Under the pieces are notes generated by a model. It did not search any database. It worked only from the letters and a program-made list of their open reading frames with translations, and had not been told where the DNA came from. From Candidatus Omnitrophota bacterium (GTDB taxonomy: Bacteria > Omnitrophota > Gorgyraeia > Duberdicusellales > 4484-171): DNA of 64,000 nt. The stretch lies in NCBI GenBank assembly GCA_021735655.1, contig JAIPGM010000006.1, forward strand, positions 36,491 to 100,490, given 5' to 3'. Shown piece by piece: positions 1-8,888 of the stretch. The number at the start of each line of letters is the position of its first letter. Position 1 is the stretch's first letter. The translations under genes and the position numbers were made by a program.

Positions 1-1209
1 TTCTACATGCTTATGCCCTAACAGTTCCTGGACTTCTCGAATATTAACCCCATTCATTAAAAGATGTGTTGCGAAGCTATGCCTGAGAGTATGCACGCTG
101 GCGCGTTTTATAATTCCGGCTTTCTTTACCGCAATAGCTACAATCTTTTGAACTGTATTGGGACTTATATGATGTCTTCGGATTTTACCACTCCTAGGAT
201 CAATTGAAAGTCGAGAAGATGGAAAAGCATACTGCCACCCCCACTCCTTAGCAGCTTTAGAATATTTGTGCTCTAAAGCATTCGGTAGATATACCTCTCC
301 ATAACCGGCAGCTTTATCTTCTTCGAAAATATTCTTAACTTGCTCTAAATGTTTTCTGAGAGAACTACCTAACGCCTGTGGCAGCATAGTGCTACGGTCT
401 TTATCCCCTTTTGCTCCGCGTAAAAATAAAATATTGCTCTCAAAATCAATATCCTGCACTCGCAAGCGCACGAGCTCCATAAGCCGCAACCCTGAACCAT
501 AAAGCAATTGCACAATTAATAAATCTTTATTCCTTAGTTGTTCAAATAACCCTTGTATTTCCTTAACTGACAAAACTGTTGGTAATTTAGGGCCCCGCTT
601 TGCGCGAACGGTTTCAGCTAAATTATTTACTTCTATTTTTAGAACATCTCGAAATAAAAATAAAAGTGCATTAAAGGCTTGGTTCTGGGTCGAAGATGAA
701 ACTCGACCCTCTATAGCTAGATATGTCAAATAATCTTTAACATCTTCTGGGGTTAGCTTCTGAGGATATATCTGCTTTCGCTTTCCTTTATTTAAATAAT
801 CAAAAAATCTCTTTGCCCATGTAACGTATGTCCTTTCTGTGCTATAAGAAAAATGCTTCACTCGAATGGCATTCGTCATTTTCTTTAACAAATCATCAAA
901 ATTAACATCTTCATCTTTAAATCTAGATACTTCGACAGATTTAATCTTATAAATTTGAGGTGGAGCAAAATTGTCTACATATATACTTATCGCTTCTTTG
1001 GCCTGCTGAAATTGCCACTCTTCAATTTTTATAATCTTTAGCTTTTCAAAAAACTTTTCTTTCTGTTCCTCAAGTGATGATTTTGGACGAATACAACAGA
1101 ATTTAAGAAATCTATCTACCCAATAGGCATAAAAAGGGGCTGTTTTTTCTGTAGCTAATTTCTTTGAAATTAAAAATCTTTGAAATTGAGATAACACACC
1201 TATTTTCAT
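1..1209 (-). CDS. intI: Integron integrase (IntI-type tyrosine recombinase), partial: C-terminus including the catalytic Tyr lies beyond the window edge. An alternative shorter start is at 879.
   Basis: Reverse-strand translation reads ...[21 protein letters not shown]...[13 protein letters not shown]...[38 protein letters not shown]...[36 protein letters not shown]. This contains the [12 protein letters not shown] recombinase box. It also contains the IntI-specific extra patch (compare IntI1 [37 protein letters not shown]). The ORF runs off the window at position 1. It is divergent from the cassette array. Confidence 0.8.
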   Translation of the reverse strand, partial: [403 protein letters not shown]

Positions 1210-1415
1210 GACTTTTCTTTCTTTGCCATAAATCCAATGATATACATAATATACATTTCCTGATATTATAGATAAATTACATAATTAAAGCAACATTTTT
1301 CTTCCAAAATCATTAAAAACATGCTAAAATTTTACTATATATATCAATAAAATATAAAAACATATATTATGCATATTAATTGTTAGATGTAAAATAAAAT
1401 GATAAAAGGAGAAAA
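1210..1415. promoter_or_regulatory. attI / cassette-promoter region between intI and the first cassette. Candidate Pc is TTGCCA (1223-1228), 18 nt spacer, TAATAT (1247-1252), reading toward the cassettes. Candidate attI crossover is G|TTAGAT at 1382-1388.
   Basis: AT-rich 200 nt spacer. The 3' end GTTAGATGTAAAAT matches the R' ends of the downstream attC sites (for example GTGTTAGATGTAAAATGAG at 5900). An AAAGGAG ribosome-binding site then precedes ATG 1416. Confidence 0.4.
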
Positions 1416-2699
1416 ATGAAGCAAATTTTGCGCTATTTTTTGGTTTTCTTTTCCCTAATTATATTTTTAAATTTATCTCCTTTTGCTTTTGGACAACAGG
1501 ACCAATCCTCCGGTGATTTTATTGATGGGAATTTTGAAGAAATAGGTCGTCTCAAGAAAGATTCTCAGAAACTTGATACCAGTAAAACCGGCGATCTGTT
1601 TATGGATACATGGATGGGGATATTAACTAGCCCAAAAGAATTTTTTTCTTGGAATACAAAAGGCGATGTCAAACTGGTCTATGATGGGAGTAACACACTG
1701 GTTGAATTGACACAGAGTAAAGAAGGGCCTGCGTCTATAAGCCAATTCTTTGGTTTTAAAAATAAAGATGCGTCAATTGAGTTTGATGTTAAAATTATAA
1801 AGAAAACTACCTCAGATGAATTAGAAGTGACAGTAGCAGATGTGGGTGGGCCTGCCTGGGGTAAACCCCCTGCAATAGAGATTCCGCTGGAGACATTTCG
1901 GCTCTCAACCATTTATCCGACTAAACATATCTCCATTGACCTTTCAAATAGTAAATATTTTTTAGATAAACAAGCTAAAGATGAAGCTAATGATATGGAC
2001 TTAGTTGATGCATCTATTTTTGGTACGATAACTTTTCGCTTGAAGGGAAATGCTGAAGAACCAACAACAATACGATTGGATAACCTTAAGGTTACTTATT
2101 ATAAAAAAGAAGGCGAAGTGAAACGTTATTATAAAGATAATCAGCCGAAGATAGATAAATTCTATAAAGATGGTAAGCAGGAAGGTCTGGAGAAGCGTTA
2201 TTATCGCAATGGACAGTTACAGTCGGAGCACCCATATAGGAATGGTAAACTAGACGGGATACAAAAGTATTATGCTATAGATGGAAAAGTCTGGGAAGAA
2301 ACGCCTTACAGAGACGGCAAGCGAGAGGGAACACAAAGACGTTACAGAAATGGGGTGCTGACGGAAGAAAGATTATATAAAAATGATAAGATGGTAGAAA
2401 TTAAAATTTATTATAAAACTGGTGAAATAAAATCAGAAGCAACGATTAGGAATGATAAGACAGAAGGGTCATCTAAAGAGTATTATAAAAATGGACAAGT
2501 AATGGAAGAACGTATCTATAGCGATAGCCAGAGAGTAGGCGTAACAAAGCATTACTATGCTAACGGACAGCTAAAAGCAGAGATACCTTACAAGAAGGAT
2601 AGAAAAGATGGCATTGCGAGGATTTATAATGAAGAAGGCAACTTAGTAAAAGAAGAAGTTTGGGAAAAAGATAAACTCATAAGTACTAGAGAGAAATAA
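1416..2699 (+). CDS. Cassette 1: secreted protein with about 12 MORN-variant (YwqK-family-like) repeats.
   Basis: N-terminal signal peptide MKQILRYFLVFFSLIIFLNLSPFAFG. C-terminal half is tandem ~23-aa repeats of form YYxNGQlxxEhPYrNGKxdG. Strong AAAGGAG ribosome-binding site. Followed by attC1. Confidence 0.7.
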   Translation: MKQILRYFLVFFSLIIFLNLSPFAFGQQDQSSGDFIDGNFEEIGRLKKDSQKLDTSKTGDLFMDTWMGILTSPKEFFSWNTKGDVKLVYDGSNTLVELTQSKEGPASISQFFGFKNKDASIEFDVKIIKKTTSDELEVTVADVGGPAWGKPPAIEIPLETFRLSTIYPTKHISIDLSNSKYFLDKQAKDEANDMDLVDASIFGTITFRLKGNAEEPTTIRLDNLKVTYYKKEGEVKRYYKDNQPKIDKFYKDGKQEGLEKRYYRNGQLQSEHPYRNGKLDGIQKYYAIDGKVWEETPYRDGKREGTQRRYRNGVLTEERLYKNDKMVEIKIYYKTGEIKSEATIRNDKTEGSSKEYYKNGQVMEERIYSDSQRVGVTKHYYANGQLKAEIPYKKDRKDGIARIYNEEGNLVKEEVWEKDKLISTREK

Positions 2700-2713
2700 A
2701 TATTAAATTACCC

Positions 2714-2788
2714 ATCTAACAAATCAATCCAGCCGACCCTCCCCGCGCGCTGGCGCGCTTGGTCGGGCGGCTGATTTTTGTGTTATCT
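2714..2788 (+). repeat. attC1 (integron cassette recombination site).
   Basis: ATCTAACAAATCAATCCAGCCGACC, then a GC palindrome gcgcgctggcgcgc, then GGTCGGGCGGCTGATTTTTGTGTTATCT. The flanks are imperfect inverted repeats with an unpaired GCG bulge. R'' is ATCTAAC and R' is GTTATCT. Confidence 0.75.
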
Positions 2789-2794
2789 TAAAAA

Positions 2795-3619
2795 ATGAAT
2801 CAAATACAAATGATAATAAACATAGGAATAGGTGTAATATCTGGCTTAATAACCTTCATTGTATGTGAATACATTCTTAAACCATATCTAAACCAAAAAA
2901 TAAATCCTAAAAAAGTTACTAATTTTTTTAGAAGTGGACCATTTTTGTTTGTCTTGGCTGTCCTGATTGCTTTTATCTTAAGTGCCTCCAACCAACAACT
3001 GAGAATGACATTATTTGGCCATGGCTTAGGCTCTTCTACTGTCGTTAGGGAATTAGAAAATTTATATATGTCAATTCCCGAAATGAAGGATGAAATAATT
3101 AAATCATCTGAGGGAAAGTTAAAGGAAAAAGATTTAATTAACTTGTGTCTGCAAGAAAAATTATATTATTTGAAATTAAAGCAAACCGGGAAATATTCCT
3201 ACAAACAAAATAACGCAAAGGAAGCTATTAATTTTTCAGGCAATCATAAAGTATTGTATCCGAATAGTCAGATTTACTCTGAAACAACATATACAAATGG
3301 CGAACGTTTAGATGCAAATTTTAAAGCTTATTATTACAATGGGGTCATTAGAGCAGAAATTATAACCGACAAATCTCAAATGAACGACACCACGAAAATT
3401 GTAAAATATTATTACAACAACGGCAAAATATGGTGCGAATATAGATATCACGACAACAAACACATGACTGGTATTATTTATGACAAGGAAGGTAATATAC
3501 TAGGTAAAGGAAAAGGTCTTTTTCTAGCAATTCTTATACCTGGTTATTTTGAAAAAATCGAAAGACAAGTTTACGACGTGCGCTACAATCCAAATACATT
3601 TTATGATTATGGATTATGA
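2795..3619 (+). CDS. Cassette 2: membrane-anchored protein with MORN-variant (YwqK-like) repeats.
   Basis: N-terminal TM helix. C-terminal repeats YTNGERLDANFKAYYYNGVIRAEI...KYYYNNGKIWCEYRYHDNKHMTGIIYDKEGN. Followed by attC2. Confidence 0.55.
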   Translation: MNQIQMIINIGIGVISGLITFIVCEYILKPYLNQKINPKKVTNFFRSGPFLFVLAVLIAFILSASNQQLRMTLFGHGLGSSTVVRELENLYMSIPEMKDEIIKSSEGKLKEKDLINLCLQEKLYYLKLKQTGKYSYKQNNAKEAINFSGNHKVLYPNSQIYSETTYTNGERLDANFKAYYYNGVIRAEIITDKSQMNDTTKIVKYYYNNGKIWCEYRYHDNKHMTGIIYDKEGNILGKGKGLFLAILIPGYFEKIERQVYDVRYNPNTFYDYGL

Positions 3620-3632
3620 GAAAATTAATAAA

Positions 3633-3705
3633 AGATAACAAAGCAATCCAGCGGACCAATTCCGCCGCTTCGCGGCTCCATTGGCCGCTGATTTCTATGT
3701 TAGAC
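3633..3705 (+). repeat. attC2.
   Basis: AGATAACAAAGCAATCCAGCGGACCAAT ... ATTGGCCGCTGATTTCTATGTTAGAC. Same architecture as attC1, with an extrahelical T in the left arm. Confidence 0.75.
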
Positions 3706-3732
3706 ATAAAAAAATAGAAAATAAGGAGAAAA

Positions 3733-4587
3733 ATGAAAATAAAAGCAAAGGAGCCGTGGTTGGCAGTTTTCTTGAATCGCTTGTTGCCCGGATTAGGGTA
3801 TCTTTACACGAAGAATTTAGTTAGAGCAATTATTGTATTTTTAGTCACCATATCATTAACGTTTATTGCAGTTTCGACATTGATCGCTTTTGCCAAAAAC
3901 GATACGACTGTTACATCCAAAGTATTATGGGGAGTCATTATTTTTGTTGCAGTCAATTTTATATTTAATTTCGCTATCTTGATAGATGGGTATTTGTGTG
4001 CAAGGAAACATAATCTTTCTAATGACGTAAAGCCTTCGCGCATGGGGCTTCGTATTTTTGCTATCATTGGAACTATAGTTTTATTGTTAACTGGAGGTAT
4101 CTCTATTTTTCCGGTTATCTACATAAGAACTCATTTGATACAGTTTTTTAAAATGCCTACCACATCAATGGCTCCAGCGCTAAAACTTAATGATAAAATC
4201 ATGGTAGATAAAAAAGCATACAATAGCAATAAGCCACAAAGAATGGAGATAGTTGTATTTCTTCCTCCTCACGATAATAGAAAGTATTACCTGAAGAGAA
4301 TTATTGGTTTACCAGGAGAAGAAGTGGAAATCAAGGACGGCAAGGTTTATATAAACAACGAGGTCATAACTAATCTATTCGTGACAAATAACTATTATTA
4401 TAATCAGGGTGATTACGCCAAAAAAGGTAAAAAGATAATCGTGCCCCCAAATAATTATTATGTTTTAGGCGACAATAGCGTTTCAAGTTTGGACAGTAGA
4501 TTCTTTGGATTTGTTCCCGAAAAAAATATAACAGGAAAAGTAGTTAAAATATATTGGCCTCCTGAAAGATCAGGAAGAGTTAAATAA
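3733..4587 (+). CDS. Cassette 3: signal peptidase I (S26 family) with an N-terminal multi-TM, TM2-like domain.
   Basis: S26 boxes are present: PTTSMAPAL (catalytic Ser), YLKRIIGLPGEEVEI (catalytic Lys) and GDNSVSSLDSRFFGFV. N-terminus AVFLNRLLPGLGYLYTKN plus 3-4 TM helices resembles a TM2 domain. Confidence 0.7.
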   Translation: MKIKAKEPWLAVFLNRLLPGLGYLYTKNLVRAIIVFLVTISLTFIAVSTLIAFAKNDTTVTSKVLWGVIIFVAVNFIFNFAILIDGYLCARKHNLSNDVKPSRMGLRIFAIIGTIVLLLTGGISIFPVIYIRTHLIQFFKMPTTSMAPALKLNDKIMVDKKAYNSNKPQRMEIVVFLPPHDNRKYYLKRIIGLPGEEVEIKDGKVYINNEVITNLFVTNNYYYNQGDYAKKGKKIIVPPNNYYVLGDNSVSSLDSRFFGFVPEKNITGKVVKIYWPPERSGRVK

Positions 4588-4594
4588 TAAAAAT

Positions 4595-4678
4595 GTCTAA
4601 CAAGTCGATCCAGCGGACTTAAAAGCGCCGCCAATTAAAGCGCAAAGCGCTTTTAAGCCGCTGATCTTGATGTTATGA
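4595..4678 (+). repeat. attC3.
   Basis: GTCTAACAAGTCGATCCAGCGGAC ... GCCGCTGATCTTGATGTTATGA. Conserved flanks and variable palindromic core. Confidence 0.7.
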
Positions 4679-4688
4679 GAAAAATAAA

Positions 4689-5186
4689 ATGAAAAAAATA
4701 AATAAAATTTTCTTTGTTTTAATTTGCGTTCTTTGTTCTGCGCAATTAGCACTTTATGCAGAATATAATTCAACCCTCTTAAAACATCATATACAATTTT
4801 CTCCACCTACCGGTTGGAATCAAATTTCACTTGGCCCTTTTGCCGCAGATATAGAAGGAATTGCATTCCGCAGCCCTGATGAGAAAGCGGTAATTACCGT
4901 ATCCTTGCCCAAAAAAACTAATTTTATTTCGTTTCATGGTGCTCTTATATTATTTCGTTTAAGCAAAAGGCCAAAGGAAGAAAAAATAACATTTTGTGAT
5001 GAGTCATGCTATATTTTTGATTTTGAACAAATCAATAAAAATAATATAAAAGTACTGACAAAAACCTATAAATTTTTAAAGAAAAACAAACTATATACAA
5101 TCAGCTATTATTCATCTCCCAATGAATATCGACAGTATTTACCCGAATTTAAGAAGGCGTTAGCAACGTTTAAAATTATTGAATAA
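4689..5186 (+). CDS. Cassette 4: secreted hypothetical protein.
   Basis: Signal peptide MKKINKIFFVLICVLCSAQLALYA. No recognisable domain. Flanked by attC3 and attC4. Confidence 0.5.
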   Translation: MKKINKIFFVLICVLCSAQLALYAEYNSTLLKHHIQFSPPTGWNQISLGPFAADIEGIAFRSPDEKAVITVSLPKKTNFISFHGALILFRLSKRPKEEKITFCDESCYIFDFEQINKNNIKVLTKTYKFLKKNKLYTISYYSSPNEYRQYLPEFKKALATFKIIE

Positions 5187-5191
5187 ATGTC

Positions 5192-5276
5192 TCATAACAA
5201 AGCAATCGAGCGGACAATCCTCGCCGCTAAATAGAATTCGGGAAAGCTCGGCTTGCCACTCATTTTTATGTTAGAC
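5192..5276 (+). repeat. attC4.
   Basis: TCATAACAAAGCAATCGAGCGGAC ... GCTCGGCTTGCCACTCATTTTTATGTTAGAC. The 3' arm has diverged more than in the other sites. Confidence 0.65.
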
Positions 5277-5288
5277 GAAAATAAAAAA

Positions 5289-5828
5289 ATGATTAAAAAG
5301 ATAATAGTAATTATTTGTTTTAGTTGCATAATCTGTTTAAATTTAGCATATTCTAAATATGTTGACCCAGACGCGATTGTTAGGATAACACGCAAAATTA
5401 CTCAAAGAATTTACAAAGATATAATTTCAATTAAAGACGAGTATGAAGAATTGAAGGGTTTTGATGAAAACTTTTATGGTAAAGGGACGAGATTCCAATA
5501 TCGCATAGTTAGTCCCACAATCGAATATATTTATTGTCCTGGTACATACAATCAATCTTATGAACGAGTTATGGAATTGTATTGCAACCCTCAACCCCCT
5601 GCTATTCATCTAAGGTTAGTATTCCTTAGCGCTCCTTGTGGCACAAACAAGTGCGACATAGTTAGCATTTGTCCGGATGGAATCGAAGCCCAAATTTATA
5701 TCGAAGAAATTGATCGTTATCTAATATTCAGTCAGCGTAGTGGAAATGCTGAGCTTGATACAAAACTTATGGAAATTTTCCGCAAACACACAAAAAAATA
5801 CAAAACAAAAGAAATACCTTGGGAATAG
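5289..5828 (+). CDS. Cassette 5: secreted Cys-containing hypothetical protein. The start is reassigned to ATG 5289; the ORF-track start at 5253 lies inside attC4.
   Basis: MIKKIIVIICFSCIICLNLAYS signal peptide immediately downstream of the attC4 GTTAGAC. In frame with the track ORF. Confidence 0.5.
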   Translation: MIKKIIVIICFSCIICLNLAYSKYVDPDAIVRITRKITQRIYKDIISIKDEYEELKGFDENFYGKGTRFQYRIVSPTIEYIYCPGTYNQSYERVMELYCNPQPPAIHLRLVFLSAPCGTNKCDIVSICPDGIEAQIYIEEIDRYLIFSQRSGNAELDTKLMEIFRKHTKKYKTKEIPWE

Positions 5829-5832
5829 GCTC

Positions 5833-5908
5833 ATCTAACAAGGCAATCCAGCGGACCTTACCTCGGCCCTAACGGGCTTCGGCAAGGCCGCTGATTTTTG
5901 TGTTAGAT
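5833..5908 (+). repeat. attC5.
   Basis: ATCTAACAAGGCAATCCAGCGGACC ... GGCCGCTGATTTTTGTGTTAGAT. Confidence 0.75.
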
Positions 5909-5970
5909 GTAAAATGAGATCACTAGATGAAAAAAATATTTCTATTAACATGCTATTATAGGAGGGGTAT

Positions 5971-6315
5971 ATGAAAAAAATTTTATTGTGGATGGGTTTT
6001 ATAATAAACCTTTTAGCATTCTTAGGTATTGCCTGCTATGGGTCATGGTCTGTTTGGGCTGGAATACTAAGCATTTCTAAATCAGAATATGCAAATATGT
6101 ATATCGTTTTCGGAATAGTTCCTGTTTTAATAAGCATTCCTTTTAATATCTTTATGAATCTTTGCTTGAACTCAATTCTGGATAAGAAGAAAAGATTCCC
6201 AACAAAATGGGTTATTTTTTCCCAATCAATCATATTTATTTTGACACCAATCGCTCTACTTACTGGGATTGCAGATTTAATTTCAGATGCATGGAGTTTT
6301 TTTACACTGCGTTAG
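5971..6315 (+). CDS. Cassette 6: small multi-TM membrane protein.
   Basis: 114 aa with about 3 hydrophobic helices. GGAGG ribosome-binding site. Followed by attC6. Confidence 0.45.
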   Translation: MKKILLWMGFIINLLAFLGIACYGSWSVWAGILSISKSEYANMYIVFGIVPVLISIPFNIFMNLCLNSILDKKKRFPTKWVIFSQSIIFILTPIALLTGIADLISDAWSFFTLR

Positions 6316-6357
6316 ATACCGTGCAAGTAATTAAAATTATTTAGGAAATTAAAAAAC

Positions 6358-6435
6358 TTCTAACAACTCAATCCAGCTGACCCTTTGACTCGGCCTTTCA
6401 GGCCTCGCTCAGGGCAGCTGATTTTTATGTTATGT
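6358..6435 (+). repeat. attC6.
   Basis: TTCTAACAACTCAATCCAGCTGACCC, then GGCCtttcaGGCC, then AGGGCAGCTGATTTTTATGTTATGT. There is an extrahelical T in the left arm. Confidence 0.75.
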
Positions 6436-6477
6436 GAAAATAATAAAAACATTCTCGCACAAAAAAAGGAGGAGAAA

Positions 6478-6831
6478 ATGGACAAGAAAAAAACAGATTG
6501 GACAAAACCAAGCTTGATAATGCTCGGGATTGATGTTCTGGCGCTGTTCATTATGATGATCGTTTTGGGAAATCTTGTTAATAGATTTAATGAATTATAC
6601 AGTCAATTCAGCATTGAATTATCACCTATTGCACAATTTAGCTTAACCGGATATAAAATATTTTTTCTACTGCTTTTAATTGGGCTTTTGGGCAAAGAGT
6701 TTTTGAAAAATAAAAAGGCAACATTCATAATAAATATATCGGCACTAGCTGTTACCCTTTTTATATTTGTGCCTTTTATAATTTTAGGAATATTTTTTCC
6801 TTTGTTTAACTTAACAAGCATGGGGGGATAA
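6478..6831 (+). CDS. Cassette 7: small membrane protein. The start is reassigned to ATG 6478; the track start at 6385 lies inside attC6.
   Basis: AAGGAGGAG ribosome-binding site 6 nt upstream of ATG 6478. Product MDKKKTDW... is 117 aa with 3 TM helices. Confidence 0.5.
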   Translation: MDKKKTDWTKPSLIMLGIDVLALFIMMIVLGNLVNRFNELYSQFSIELSPIAQFSLTGYKIFFLLLLIGLLGKEFLKNKKATFIINISALAVTLFIFVPFIILGIFFPLFNLTSMGG

Positions 6832-6851
6832 ATTTAAAAGTTTTAATAATC

Positions 6852-7026
6852 ACATAACAAGACAATTCAGCCAACCTTCATCCGTTGCCTGTTGGGTTGG
6901 CTGGTATGCCGAACCCTTCATAATAACAAAATGCTTCGCATTTTAAGTATATGGATTCGGCATAGTTCGACTAAGTATTTTTGCTCGCAAAAATGCCAGT
7001 CTCATTAGCTGATTTTTGTGTTATAG
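6852..7026 (+). repeat. attC7, atypically long and composite (about 175 nt).
   Basis: Canonical left flank ACATAACAAGACAATTCAGCCAACC is followed by GGGTTGGCTGG. A roughly 105-nt insert follows, with two extra hairpins (TATGCCGAA...TTCGGCATA and ATTTTTGC..GCAAAAAT). The conserved right flank GCTGATTTTTGTGTTATAG then ends the site. Confidence 0.6.
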
Positions 7027-7049
7027 GAAAATAAAACGGAGGAGTTAAG

Positions 7050-7322
7050 ATGGAAAATGTAAAAAAAATATATAAAGAAGGAGTAGTAAAGGGTGTTCGT
7101 TATTTTGTTATTACATTATGGGTTAATTTTCTATGCATTCCGTTGTACATGATAAAAAATTTCTTTGAGCCAGAGCAGGGATGGAATTTTCAAGAACACA
7201 CGTTATTAATTATTGGTTTCTGTATTCTAGTTGTTGTATATTTACCATTTGCTGTTTATTTGGCATCGAAAAGATCAAACCAACTGAATACTCCTATATT
7301 GAAAACAAATATTTCGATATAA
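7050..7322 (+). CDS. Cassette 8: small membrane protein (90 aa).
   Basis: GGAGG ribosome-binding site. Two hydrophobic helices. Flanked by attC7 and attC8. Confidence 0.45.
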   Translation: MENVKKIYKEGVVKGVRYFVITLWVNFLCIPLYMIKNFFEPEQGWNFQEHTLLIIGFCILVVVYLPFAVYLASKRSNQLNTPILKTNISI

Positions 7323-7327
7323 TATTT

Positions 7328-7402
7328 GTATAACAAGGCAATCCACCTGACCATACTCGCCGCTTTTAGCGGCTCGTCTGGCCGGTGATTTTTGTGTTAT
7401 GT
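7328..7402 (+). repeat. attC8.
   Basis: GTATAACAAGGCAATCCACCTGACC ... GGCCGGTGATTTTTGTGTTATGT. Confidence 0.7.
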
Positions 7403-7413
7403 GAATATAAAAT

Positions 7414-7986
7414 ATGAATAAAATTGACCTTTTATTTATAGTCTGTCTTCTAGCCTTACGTTTTCTACCTAGAAAATCAGCAAAATATAGATACTATTGG
7501 GTGTTTCCTTTATTAGTCTTTTTTTTAGCTATCGGTATCCGAATTAATTCTAAAATCGAGAGTCGGAAACGTTCAGAAAGAATTCAAGAGCTAGAAAGCA
7601 ATCTTAACGCTTTGCGCGATTATAGCTCTATTGCAAAACTTAATATTTTAGGCTTACCTGCTCGTGCAGGTTCAGGCATAAAATTATCTACTCCAATTTC
7701 AACTTCGCTAGAGAATGCAATAATTGAAAAGGATGGCAAATATTTCCCCACGTGCAGCAAGGAAGCGGAAGAAAAATTTAAGCAGACTATAAAATCTTAT
7801 CCACGATTTCCATTTTCATACTATGGCTTAGCCGTCTGTCTCAGGAGTAAAGAAGATGAAGCTTGGAAGGATTACGCAAATCAAGCCATAGAAATATTTA
7901 AAAAAACTATCAGCATTAAAGATCATAATTCTGGGCACGACCAAGCAATGAAAGAATTAATCAGATATTTAGAAGAAATAAATTAA
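7414..7986 (+). CDS. Cassette 9: membrane-anchored hypothetical protein (190 aa).
   Basis: N-terminal TM segments followed by a charged or coiled region. Flanked by attC8 and attC9. Confidence 0.45.
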   Translation: MNKIDLLFIVCLLALRFLPRKSAKYRYYWVFPLLVFFLAIGIRINSKIESRKRSERIQELESNLNALRDYSSIAKLNILGLPARAGSGIKLSTPISTSLENAIIEKDGKYFPTCSKEAEEKFKQTIKSYPRFPFSYYGLAVCLRSKEDEAWKDYANQAIEIFKKTISIKDHNSGHDQAMKELIRYLEEIN

Positions 7987-8003
7987 AACTAGGTAATTAA
8001 AAC

Positions 8004-8085
8004 ACATAACAAAGCAATCCACCTGACCCTCCTCGCGGCTTCCTGAGACCGCGGGCTCGTCGGGCAGGTGATTTTTGTGTTAGGA
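8004..8085 (+). repeat. attC9, the last attC in the window.
   Basis: ACATAACAAAGCAATCCACCTGACCC ... GGGCAGGTGATTTTTGTGTTAGGA. There is an extrahelical T in the left arm. Confidence 0.75.
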
Positions 8086-8156
8086 GGTAAAAATTTACGC
8101 AAAATTTTCTTTCTTTGCCAAGATTAGAATGCTATAATTGTTTTTAGGAGATAACT

Positions 8157-8888
8157 ATGTTCTGGATTTGGATAATGATTATTATGATAGTAATGGCCGC
8201 TGGGGTTGTAACCTTAGCTCTCCTGCCGACCTCTAAAGAATTGGCTTATTTAGAAAAATTACGAAAAATAGCTGATGATTTGCTTTATAGACTAAAAAAC
8301 ACCTTAAGAGAAGCCTGGAAAGAAAAGAAAAAACTTCCACTACCACTTGTAATTTTGGGGGCTGTCTGGATATTGAATGGCTTATATATAAGCATAAGTA
8401 CTTTAATGACCCCTTCTCAAATCACAAAACTAGAGACTCTAGCTGGTATATTCAGGATCTTAAGCATCGGTTGGATTATTATTGGGGTAACTTTATTTAA
8501 CGGCTATATTTTAAGTAGAAAATTTGCCTTTATCGCCGCAGGAATAGTAATTAGCCTTGGTATTGCTGTTATTGCAGTACCACCGCTTACCCAAGAAGAA
8601 TATCTTCTGCAACAATATGAAATATATCTACAAAATCAACAGTATCAACAAAATACTCTAGGAATTAATGAATATGTAACCTCGCGGCTGGTAGATCCTG
8701 GCGAAGGTAGGCCTACGAAAGCTGAGATAACCAAAGAACAAGCTATAGCTATAATCAATATGCTTATTGCCCTGATTACGATACTTTATCTAATTACTCC
8801 GAAAGCTAAAAAATATTTTGGTATCGAAAAGGAGCAATCTTTTTCATTTAAAGAGGGAATTGGTAGTTCATTTCGTCGCTACCGCTAA
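8157..8888 (+). CDS. Multi-TM membrane protein with a Q-rich segment. It is the first gene after the last attC; it may be an attC-less terminal cassette or the chromosomal boundary.
   Basis: 243 aa with several hydrophobic helices and a QQYEIYLQNQQYQQN stretch. No attC follows it. Its 3' end overlaps era convergently by 4 nt. Confidence 0.45.
   Translation: MFWIWIMIIMIVMAAGVVTLALLPTSKELAYLEKLRKIADDLLYRLKNTLREAWKEKKKLPLPLVILGAVWILNGLYISISTLMTPSQITKLETLAGIFRILSIGWIIIGVTLFNGYILSRKFAFIAAGIVISLGIAVIAVPPLTQEEYLLQQYEIYLQNQQYQQNTLGINEYVTSRLVDPGEGRPTKAEITKEQAIAIINMLIALITILYLITPKAKKYFGIEKEQSFSFKEGIGSSFRRYR

What the first reader, a model, noticed from the sequence alone, without database searches (positions are those of the whole stretch)
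6852..7026. Composite 175-nt attC with an internal ~105-nt insert carrying two extra hairpins.
attC7 has the canonical left flank and an L'-like GGGTTGGCTGG. A hairpin TATGCCGAA...TTCGGCATA (9 bp) and a second hairpin ATTTTTGC-TC-GCAAAAAT then separate this from the conserved GCTGATTTTTGTGTTATAG terminus. This could be a fusion of two attCs after deletion of a cassette. It could be a miniature insertion into the attC stem. It could also be the footprint of an attC-targeting element, since group IIC introns and some insertion sequences target attC stems.
Basis: seen in the sequence. Interest (0 to 1): 0.5.

Follow-up and report, generated by a model that had tools for sequence, protein, structure and literature searches.

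The report
Integron attC interrupted by orphan hairpin insert
One recombination site (attC) in a nine-cassette chromosomal integron of an uncultured Omnitrophica bacterium carries a unique 104-base, self-folding insert flanked by a 4-base repeat; I found no second copy and no link to any known attC-targeting element, so it is a real but minor curiosity of unresolved origin.

Summary
Window 1-8083 holds a chromosomal integron: intI on the minus strand, attI near 1381, and nine cassettes. Eight attCs are 74-86 nt and belong to one family. The seventh (6854-7026) is about 173 nt.

Removing 108 nt (6904-7011) restores a 68-nt attC that meets 16 of the family's 17 consensus pairs. The extra DNA is therefore a clean interruption at the boundary between the L' arm and the spacer, flanked by GCTG on both sides. 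Normal attC length variation lies at the hairpin tip, not here.

The 104-nt insert folds into two hairpins (z about -5.4). It has no terminal or subterminal inverted repeats, no Rfam match and no guide-like match to the target. It also sits at the opposite end of the attC from group IIC-attC introns and IS1111-attC elements.

I found no second copy in the 64-kb window, related arrays, plasmids, phages, or exact-pattern scans of genome and metagenome collections. The host cassette ORF is an orphan and the nearest IntI is only about 60% identical, so there is no empty-site allele to compare.

Best reading: a single insertion into a once-canonical attC that probably weakens it. A MITE family is unsupported and a fusion of two attCs is disfavoured. 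Interest is low to moderate.

The parts
1..1209 (-). Integron integrase gene intI. Its 3' part runs off the window; the full 450-aa ORF is in L001:2808-4160.
   Evidence: Translation. Pfam Phage_int_SAM_4 and Phage_integrase. NCBI names the 340-aa version 'integron integrase [Candidatus Omnitrophica bacterium]'.
2713..8085 (+). Array of nine attC sites: 2713-2788, 3632-3705, 4594-4678, 5191-5276, 5832-5908, 6358-6435, 6851-7026, 7327-7402 and 8003-8085. They follow an attI-like TGTTAGATG at about 1381.
   Evidence: Repeat families. Pattern GATTTTTRTGTTAT gives 9 array hits among 12 matches, against 4.1 expected. Alignment and consensus fold with 7 covarying pairs. Covariance-model hits of 69-87 bits.
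6430..7020 (+). Cassette 7. It runs from the G|TT crossover of attC6 to that of attC7 and holds an orphan 117-aa membrane-like ORF at 6478-6831.
   Evidence: Sequence and translation. Only a self-hit among 5.8 billion proteins.
6854..6903 (+). Left part of attC7: R'' ATAACAA (6854-6860), spacer, L'' CAGCCAACC (6868-6876), an 18-nt apical loop, and L' GGTTGGCTG (6895-6903). The L stem is a perfect 9 bp, so the family's extrahelical A is paired here.
   Evidence: pair 25:68 is unpaired in the consensus register because A24 pairs instead.
6900..6903 (+). Left copy of the 4-nt direct repeat GCTG. It is part of L'.
6904..7007 (+). The 104-nt insert, GC 36.5%. It is unique within all sequence I could search.
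6905..6964 (+). Hairpin 1, a 60-nt compound hairpin. Outer arms are TATGCCGAACCC and GGATTCGGCATA. The inner stem-loop is AAAATGC-TTC-GCATTTT (6928-6944). It contains an R''-like ATAACAAAA at 6923-6931.
   Evidence: Significance of the R''-like box.
6969..7001 (+). Hairpin 2, 33 nt. Outer pairs are GACT/AGTC. The perfect core is ATTTTTGC-TC-GCAAAAAT (6977-6994).
7008..7026 (+). Right part of attC7: the second GCTG copy (7008-7011), spacer ATTTTTGT (7012-7019), and R' core GTTATAG (7020-7026) with the crossover at G7020|T7021.

Best explanation
attC7 was an ordinary attC of this integron's family, about 68 nt long. It suffered one insertion event in its 3' (L'-R') arm, exactly where the L' box meets the spacer before R'. 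The inserted DNA is 104 nt (108 nt with one copy of GCTG). It is non-coding and folds on its own into two hairpins.

**Shown:**
- The interruption is clean.
- A 4-nt direct repeat flanks it.
- The insert is strongly structured.
- Its position is unlike normal attC length variation.
- It lacks the hallmarks of known attC-targeting elements.

**Inferred, mechanism:** The event most likely happened on folded or single-stranded attC DNA. There are two candidate routes. One is a small hairpin-bearing non-autonomous element that integrates next to GCTG, in the style of IS200/IS605 or REP elements, so that the repeat is target plus element end. The other is a template switch or end-joining event primed by the 4-nt microhomology, which copied a structured non-coding segment from elsewhere. 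I cannot separate these two routes with the data available.

**Inferred, consequence:** The bottom-strand attC hairpin becomes a four-way junction consisting of the R stem, hairpin 2, hairpin 1 and the L stem. Predicted R-box pairing falls about three-fold. The L stem also lacks the extrahelical base. attC7 is therefore probably a poor IntI substrate, and cassettes 7 and 8 would tend to move, if at all, as one two-ORF unit through attC6 x attC8.
For: - Deleting 6904-7011 gives a 68-nt site that aligns without gaps in the boxes. It keeps 24 of the 28 columns that are invariant among the other eight attCs and forms 16 of 17 consensus pairs, including a compensatory A-U at pair 23:69.
- GCTG is present at both junctions.
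- The covariance model built from the other eight attCs matches 6851-7026 over all 76 model positions.
- In 8 window attCs plus about 23 distinct family attCs from relatives, lengths run from 56 to 133 nt. The two sites over 100 nt carry their surplus in the apical region. This agrees with the published architecture, in which length variation lies in the variable terminal structure on top of the L stem (PMC2727003).
- The insert folds with z = -5.3 to -5.6.
- Minimum R-box pair probability on the bottom strand is 0.14 with the insert and 0.42 without it. The other attCs give 0.24-0.67.
- The L stem is a perfect 9 bp, so there is no extrahelical base. All eight other attCs bulge the A at column 24.
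Against: - There is no empty-site allele. The cassette ORF is an orphan and the nearest IntI is about 60% identical. The insertion is therefore inferred from family consensus, not observed.
- No second copy of the insert was found, so mobility is unproven.
- GCTG is itself a conserved attC position. Its repetition could reflect two attC remnants rather than a target duplication.
- The insert contains an R''-like box (p about 0.013-0.02), which hints at attC ancestry.
- Because of the repeat, an alternative pairing exists: CAGC with the second GCTG. This lets the site be read as a 4-bp L stem topped by a branched 136-nt apical structure.
- Both assemblies that carry the insert (the NCBI MAG and Logan SRR12088349) may derive from the same reads (not checked).
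Confidence: 0.55

Rival explanations
1. Fusion or graveyard of two or more attCs. A deletion removed R' of one attC, the following cassette, and the left part of the next attC. What remains is R''a-L''a-L'a, joined to leftover apical or 3' sequence, followed by L'b-R'b.
For: - GCTG is a conserved L' position in this family, so two copies are expected if two attC remnants abut.
- The insert has an R''-like ATAACAAAA that is 8/9 complementary to R'. Only 1.3-2% of control sequences reach this.
- Region 6953-6983 aligns weakly to the 3' half of attC5, with nominal p = 0.018.
Against: - No L'' (CAGC...) partner for a second L' exists in the insert, and there is no GTTRRRY box.
- The attC5 similarity does not survive correction for 10 comparisons. 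Similarity to the other attCs gives p = 0.13-0.47.
- A retained 104-nt apical remnant implies a parent attC longer than any of the roughly 31 family sites seen, whose maximum is 133 nt.
- The left break would have to fall exactly at the end of L'a, so that removing 108 nt restores a perfect site.
Confidence: 0.2
2. A native, possibly functional attC with an unusually large branched apical structure. CAGC (6868-6871) pairs with the second GCTG (7008-7011). Everything between forms a three-hairpin variable terminal structure that grew in place.
For: - Large attCs such as VCR have complex branched terminal structures (PMC2727003).
- The R box still pairs in the MFE of the bottom strand when short flanks are included.
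- All three internal hairpins are stable.
Against: - The L stem would be only 4 bp and would lack the second extrahelical base.
- MFE and centroid structures prefer the full 9-bp L''/L' stem with the insert outside it.
- No other family attC shows this layout.
- R-box pairing probability is the lowest in the array at 0.14.
Confidence: 0.13
3. Footprint or miniature derivative of a known attC-targeting element, either a group IIC-attC intron or an IS1111-attC insertion sequence.
For: - Both element types are known to land in attC sites (PMC3001079; PMC11187229).
- IS1111-family junctions can look like a 4-bp duplication, as described for ISEc11.
- From my own recall, not retrievable here: Tetu & Holmes 2008 reported degenerate IS1111-attC footprints in Pseudomonas cassette arrays.
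Against: - The insert is at the wrong end of the attC. Known elements insert near the 5' end, in antisense orientation.
- No Rfam group II intron match at E <= 10.
- No terminal or subterminal inverted repeat. The best is 6/8, with p = 0.76.
- No guide-like complementarity to the target beyond chance (p = 0.32-0.43).
- No blastn match to 72,556 plasmids at E <= 1.
- No transposase or reverse transcriptase was seen in the parts of the window whose genes were annotated.
Confidence: 0.04

Closest known systems
IS1111-attC group insertion sequences (ISPa21, ISPst6, ISKpn4)
   Same: They are site-specific occupants of integron attC sites. They have no true target duplication but show an apparent 4-bp repeat at the junctions. 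From my recall of Tetu & Holmes 2008, not retrievable here, degenerate footprints have been reported in chromosomal arrays.
   Different: - They are autonomous elements that carry a DEDD transposase gene and a seekRNA (PMC11187229); the roughly 1.3-1.5 kb size is from my own knowledge.
- They have 11-13 bp subterminal inverted repeats with 7/3-nt extensions (PMC11187229).
- They insert near the 5' end of the attC, in antisense orientation (PMC3001079).
- The insert here is 104 nt, has no such repeats, has no target-matching guide segments, and sits at the L'/R' side.
Group IIC-attC introns (e.g. S.ma.I2)
   Same: They target folded attC DNA just after a stem-loop. On the top strand, the insert here also begins immediately after the L''/L' stem-loop and starts GUAUG, which loosely recalls GUGYG.
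   Different: - The introns are about 2-kb ribozymes with a reverse transcriptase (size from my own knowledge).
- They lie in the bottom strand at the gene/attC boundary.
- The insert has no domain V and no Intron_gpII match.
- No placement of the boundaries gives both a GUGYG start and an AY end.
Hairpin-based single-strand elements: IS200/IS605 miniature derivatives (PATEs) and REP/RAYT elements
   Same: - They have no terminal inverted repeats.
- They carry subterminal hairpins.
- They integrate next to a specific tetranucleotide without duplication, so a repeat like GCTG...GCTG can arise.
- They act on single-stranded DNA, which is the state in which attCs fold.
   Different: - The two hairpins here are not alike, whereas these elements are expected to have similar left and right hairpins.
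- No Y1 transposase was seen in the annotated parts of the window.
- Only one copy is known.
- The resemblance is architectural only and rests on my own knowledge of that family.
Long natural attCs with branched variable terminal structures (e.g. Vibrio cholerae repeats, VCR)
   Same: The total length exceeds 120 nt and there are several internal hairpins. The R and L boxes are retained.
   Different: In those sites the extra DNA is apical, between L'' and L' (PMC2727003), as in L038:212-344 and L052:133-235. Here it lies outside the L stem, on the R'-L' arm.

Membership tests
Integron attC site (this array's family) | R''/R' boxes (RYYYAAC ... GTTRRRY) that pair. | tested here: met
   TAACA 6855-6859 pairs with TGTTA 7019-7023. 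All 5 R-box pairs are standard. The model match covers all 76 positions.
Integron attC site (this array's family) | L''/L' boxes that pair, contiguous with the spacer. | tested here: inconclusive
   L''/L' form a perfect 9-bp stem. However, 104 nt separate L' from the spacer and R'.
Integron attC site (this array's family) | Extrahelical bases on the R''-L'' arm. | tested here: not met
   The spacer bulge position is kept (column 17, T instead of C). The L-stem extrahelical A (column 24), present in all 8 other attCs, is paired with an extra T in attC7.
Integron attC site (this array's family) | Recombination by IntI. | not testable with these tools
   Only a folding proxy is available. R-box pair probability is 0.14, against 0.42 without the insert.
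MITE (miniature inverted-repeat transposable element) | Terminal inverted repeats. | tested here: not met
   The best end-to-end inverted match is 6/8, with p = 0.76 against shuffles.
MITE (miniature inverted-repeat transposable element) | Target-site duplication. | tested here: inconclusive
   A 4-nt GCTG repeat is present. It coincides with a conserved attC position, so it is not diagnostic.
MITE (miniature inverted-repeat transposable element) | Multiple copies in the genome. | tested here: inconclusive
   No copy was found in 64 kb plus the roughly 3 kb of additional flanking sequence in L001. None was found by exact 20-mer or hairpin-arm patterns in genome, metagenome or viral collections. 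The rest of the source MAG could not be searched.
IS1111-attC element or footprint | 11-13 bp subterminal inverted repeats with 7-nt left and 3-nt right extensions. | tested here: not met
   Definition from PMC11187229. No such repeats in either orientation.
IS1111-attC element or footprint | Insertion near the 5' end of the attC, antisense to the cassettes. | tested here: not met
   Position rule from PMC3001079. The insert lies between L' and R', which is the 3' side.
IS1111-attC element or footprint | seekRNA segments matching both target strands. | tested here: not met
   The longest match to the reconstructed target is 7 nt (ATTTTTG), with p = 0.32-0.43.
Group IIC-attC intron or remnant | Group II ribozyme elements (5' GUGYG, domain V, 3' AY). 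| tested here: not met
   No Intron_gpII or other group II family match at E <= 10 in 6700-7200. The boundaries do not fit by inspection.
Group IIC-attC intron or remnant | Insertion in the bottom strand at the R'' side (gene/attC boundary). | tested here: not met
   PMC3001079 compared with the observed position 6903/6904 to 7007/7008.
IS200/IS605-type miniature element (PATE) or REP | Similar subterminal hairpins at both ends, a cognate Y1 transposase in the genome, and several copies. | tested here: inconclusive
   Two hairpins are present, but they differ apart from the TGC-loop-GCA tips. No Y1_Tnp was seen in the annotated parts of the window. The genome-wide search was not possible.

The most novel reading that the evidence does not exclude
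The insert is the first sighting of a miniature hairpin element without inverted repeats. It would integrate site-specifically into the L'/spacer junction of folded attC DNA, next to GCTG. That would make it a third class of attC-targeting mobile element, acting at the opposite end of the site from group IIC-attC introns and IS1111-attC elements. Such elements might weld neighbouring cassettes into multi-gene units.
Probability: 0.08. Interest if true: 0.65.

Novelty: new variant of a known kind. Interest (0 to 1): 0.27.

Why it matters
attC sites are structure-specific recombination substrates, and their geometry decides whether a cassette can move. [quoted passage not shown]

An insertion that turns the hairpin into a four-way junction is a natural experiment on how much disruption the site tolerates. 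It also shows one plausible route by which cassettes in sedentary integrons become fixed or fused into two-gene units.

If further copies were found at the same attC position, it would reveal a new kind of attC-targeting element in a poorly studied candidate phylum. As a single orphan copy, it is mainly an annotation note. attC finders that cap site length or only allow apical length variation could miss this site and merge cassettes 7 and 8; I did not test any such tool.

Tried and rejected
**Searches for a second copy**
- blastn-short of the insert against the window gave only matches of 12 nt or less.
- The 20-mer ATGGATTCGGCATAGTTCGA against 185,579 species genomes gave 4 hits. All lie in a conserved high-GC Paracoccus gene and show no similarity beyond the 20-mer. 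This also shows the source genome is not in that collection.
- The hairpin-arm pattern GTATGCCGAAN{30,50}TTCGGCATAG against the metagenome collection gave 28 hits. I expected roughly 20 by chance, and none shares the loop or flanks.
- Two viral-contig scans found nothing.
- blastn in 'distant' mode against plasmids found nothing. Against phages it found one 26-nt chance match at E = 0.3.
- A concatenated six-frame peptide query, meant to catch spurious ORFs called over other copies, found nothing.
- blastn against related arrays found nothing.

**Searches for an allele**
- Cassette-7 protein homologues returned only a self-hit.
- IntI homologues are at most 60-61% identical, so no allelic arrays exist in the data.
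- Two look-ups to extend the source contig failed because the proteins are not on record.

**Tests of identity**
- Rfam found nothing near significance.
- Similarity of the insert to each attC half was not significant after correction.
- Promoter and terminator scans found only a weak TTGGCT-16-CATAAT across the left junction, within the shuffle expectation.
- The small ORFs in the insert (38 aa and 20 aa) have no support.
- No REP-like hairpin family exists in the window.
- Tetu & Holmes 2008 (PMC2447020) could not be read.

Full report
**Context**

The window comes from an uncultured Candidatus Omnitrophica bacterium. NCBI names the cassette-7 protein K9L86_05735, and the window GC is 37.5%. 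An independent Logan assembly of SRR12088349 (L001) is identical over 17,322 nt, including the feature.

Positions 1-1209 on the minus strand encode an integron integrase. The full 450-aa ORF is in L001 and carries the Phage_int_SAM_4 and Phage_integrase domains. NCBI calls it an integron integrase. An attI-like TGTTAGATG lies near 1381.

Nine attC sites follow on the plus strand up to 8085. The annotated parts of the rest of the window are housekeeping genes, including DnaG, V-type ATPase and pyrimidine synthesis. No transposase or reverse transcriptase was seen in those parts. This is a sedentary chromosomal integron.

Eight attCs are 74-86 nt and share one architecture:
- a 5-bp R box (TAACA/TGTTA);
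- a spacer;
- a 3-bp AAT/ATT helix;
- a bulged C;
- a 6-bp stem, a bulged A, and 3 more pairs.

Seven of the 17 pairs covary, and all 17 form standard pairs in 98% of cells. Slid controls give 26-48%.

A covariance model built from those eight sites matches 6851-7026 over its full length at 29.5 bits, E about 2e-4. attC7 is therefore a real member of the array, roughly 100 nt too long.

**Anatomy of attC7**

| Part | Coordinates | Sequence |
|---|---|---|
| R'' | 6854-6860 | ATAACAA |
| L'' | 6868-6876 | CAGCCAACC |
| L' | 6895-6903 | GGTTGGCTG |
| Insert | 6904-7007 | 104 nt |
| Second repeat copy | 7008-7011 | GCTG |
| Spacer | 7012-7019 | ATTTTTGT |
| R' | 7020-7026 | GTTATAG |

The last four bases of L' (GCTG, 6900-6903) recur at 7008-7011, so a 4-nt direct repeat flanks the insert.

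Deleting 6904-7011 yields a 68-nt site that aligns to the family without gaps in any box. It forms 16 of the 17 consensus pairs, with a compensatory A-U at pair 23:69.

The insert folds into two hairpins:
- a 60-nt compound hairpin (6905-6964) with an inner stem-loop at 6928-6944;
- a 33-nt hairpin (6969-7001).

The fold scores z = -5.3 to -5.6, and none of 200 shuffles matches it.

**Position of the extra DNA**

Published work places natural attC length variation in the variable terminal structure on top of the L stem, and places the extrahelical bases on the R''-L'' arm (PMC2727003).

I surveyed about 23 distinct family attCs in integrons whose IntI is 56-61% identical to this one. Lengths ran from 56 to 133 nt. 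The two sites over 100 nt (L038:212-344 and L052:133-235) carry their surplus apically.

attC7 is the only site where the surplus lies outside the L stem, on the R'-L' arm. In bottom-strand terms this is between the box that is cleaved and the L box.

**What the insert is not**

- **Group II intron.** No Rfam family comes near significance. No boundary placement fits GUGYG...AY. Group IIC-attC introns sit at the gene/attC boundary in the bottom strand (PMC3001079).
- **IS1111-attC element.** These insert near the 5' end of the attC in antisense orientation. They have 11-13 bp subterminal repeats with 7/3-nt extensions (PMC11187229). The insert's best end-to-end inverted match is 6/8, p = 0.76. 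Its longest match to the reconstructed target is 7 nt, p = 0.32-0.43. It has no blastn match in 72,556 plasmids.
- **Classical MITE.** There are no terminal inverted repeats.

**Is it repeated?**

No second copy was found:
- in the window;
- in the extra L001 flank or related arrays;
- in phages or plasmids;
- in exact-pattern scans of the genome, metagenome and viral collections, where all hits were chance;
- among predicted proteins that might overlap copies.

A low-copy or diverged family is therefore not excluded.

No allele exists for comparison. The cassette ORF is an orphan, and the nearest IntI is about 60% identical.

**Fusion versus insertion**

For fusion:
- GCTG is a conserved attC position, so two copies could mark two attC remnants.
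- The insert carries an R''-like ATAACAAAA (6923-6931) that is 8/9 complementary to R'. Only 1.3-2% of controls reach this.
- Region 6953-6983 aligns weakly to the 3' half of attC5, at nominal p = 0.018. This is not significant after ten comparisons.

Against fusion:
- The insert contains no L'' partner and no GTTRRRY box.
- The parent attC would be longer than any site surveyed.
- The left break would have to fall exactly where removing 108 nt restores a perfect site.

I rate insertion at about 0.55, fusion at about 0.2, a native branched attC at about 0.13, and a known-element footprint at about 0.04.

**Likely consequence (inferred)**

On the bottom strand, the MFE structure keeps the L stem and both insert hairpins. 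With short flanks included it also keeps the R stem, which makes a four-way junction.

The minimum R-box pair probability is 0.14. It is 0.42 for the deletion derivative and 0.24-0.67 for the other eight sites. This is partly because ATTTTTG in hairpin 2 competes with the spacer.

attC7 also lacks the L-stem extrahelical base, since its 9-bp stem is perfect. Loss of extrahelical bases is reported to reduce strand selectivity (PMC2727003).

attC7 is therefore probably a weakened site. That would tend to lock cassettes 7 and 8 together as one unit, excisable through attC6 x attC8. This is untested.

**Verdict**

The feature is real and cleanly delimited, but it is an orphan. It is an atypical interruption of an attC and not a member of any known attC-targeting family. 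There is no evidence that it is mobile.

Interest is low to moderate. It would rise sharply only if more copies were found at the same attC position.

Noticed in passing
L052:233-769 (minus strand), with attC at L052:133-235: A 178-aa Y1_Tnp (IS200-like or RAYT-type, PF01797) gene sits as an ordinary cassette, with its own 103-nt attC. It lies in the array of a PVC-group integron whose IntI is 58% identical to this one. Hairpin-acting single-strand transposases therefore do travel as integron cassettes in this clade.
   Followed up: partly
window 1213-1244 and 8105-8136 (also 1051-1069): A 32-nt direct repeat, 81% identical (TTTTCTTTCTTTGCCA...), lies just upstream of the intI start codon and again just after the last attC (attC9). 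It brackets the whole cassette array. It could be a shared regulatory motif or a boundary duplication.
   Followed up: no
window 1-1209 / L001:2808-4160: The longest intI ORF is 450 aa, and relatives are 415-452 aa. This is about 100 aa longer at the N-terminus than the 340-aa NCBI call, and also longer than the roughly 320 aa I recall for typical IntI. This environmental IntI clade (Omnitrophota, Thermodesulfobacteriota, PVC) seems to carry an N-terminal extension.
   Followed up: no
window 6868-6903: The L stem of attC7 is a perfect 9-bp helix. The A that is extrahelical in all eight other attCs is paired with an extra T. This is a second sign, independent of the insert, that the site may be decaying.
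   Followed up: yes
window 6897-6924: A weak sigma-70-like match (TTGGCT-16 nt-CATAAT, 9/12) spans the left junction of the insert and points towards cassette 8. It is within the number expected from shuffles.
   Followed up: partly
window 8157-8888: A 243-aa ORF follows attC9 with no recognisable attC after it, before the convergent housekeeping genes start at 8885. It may be a terminal cassette that has lost its attC, or the first chromosomal gene.
   Followed up: no
L047 vs L048 vs L050 (arrays next to the same 430-aa IntI, P0020): Metagenome contigs from sister samples carry the same integrase but differ in cassette content. One example is the DUF4424 cassette, present in L047 and L050 and absent in L048. 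This is visible cassette turnover in this IntI clade.
   Followed up: no
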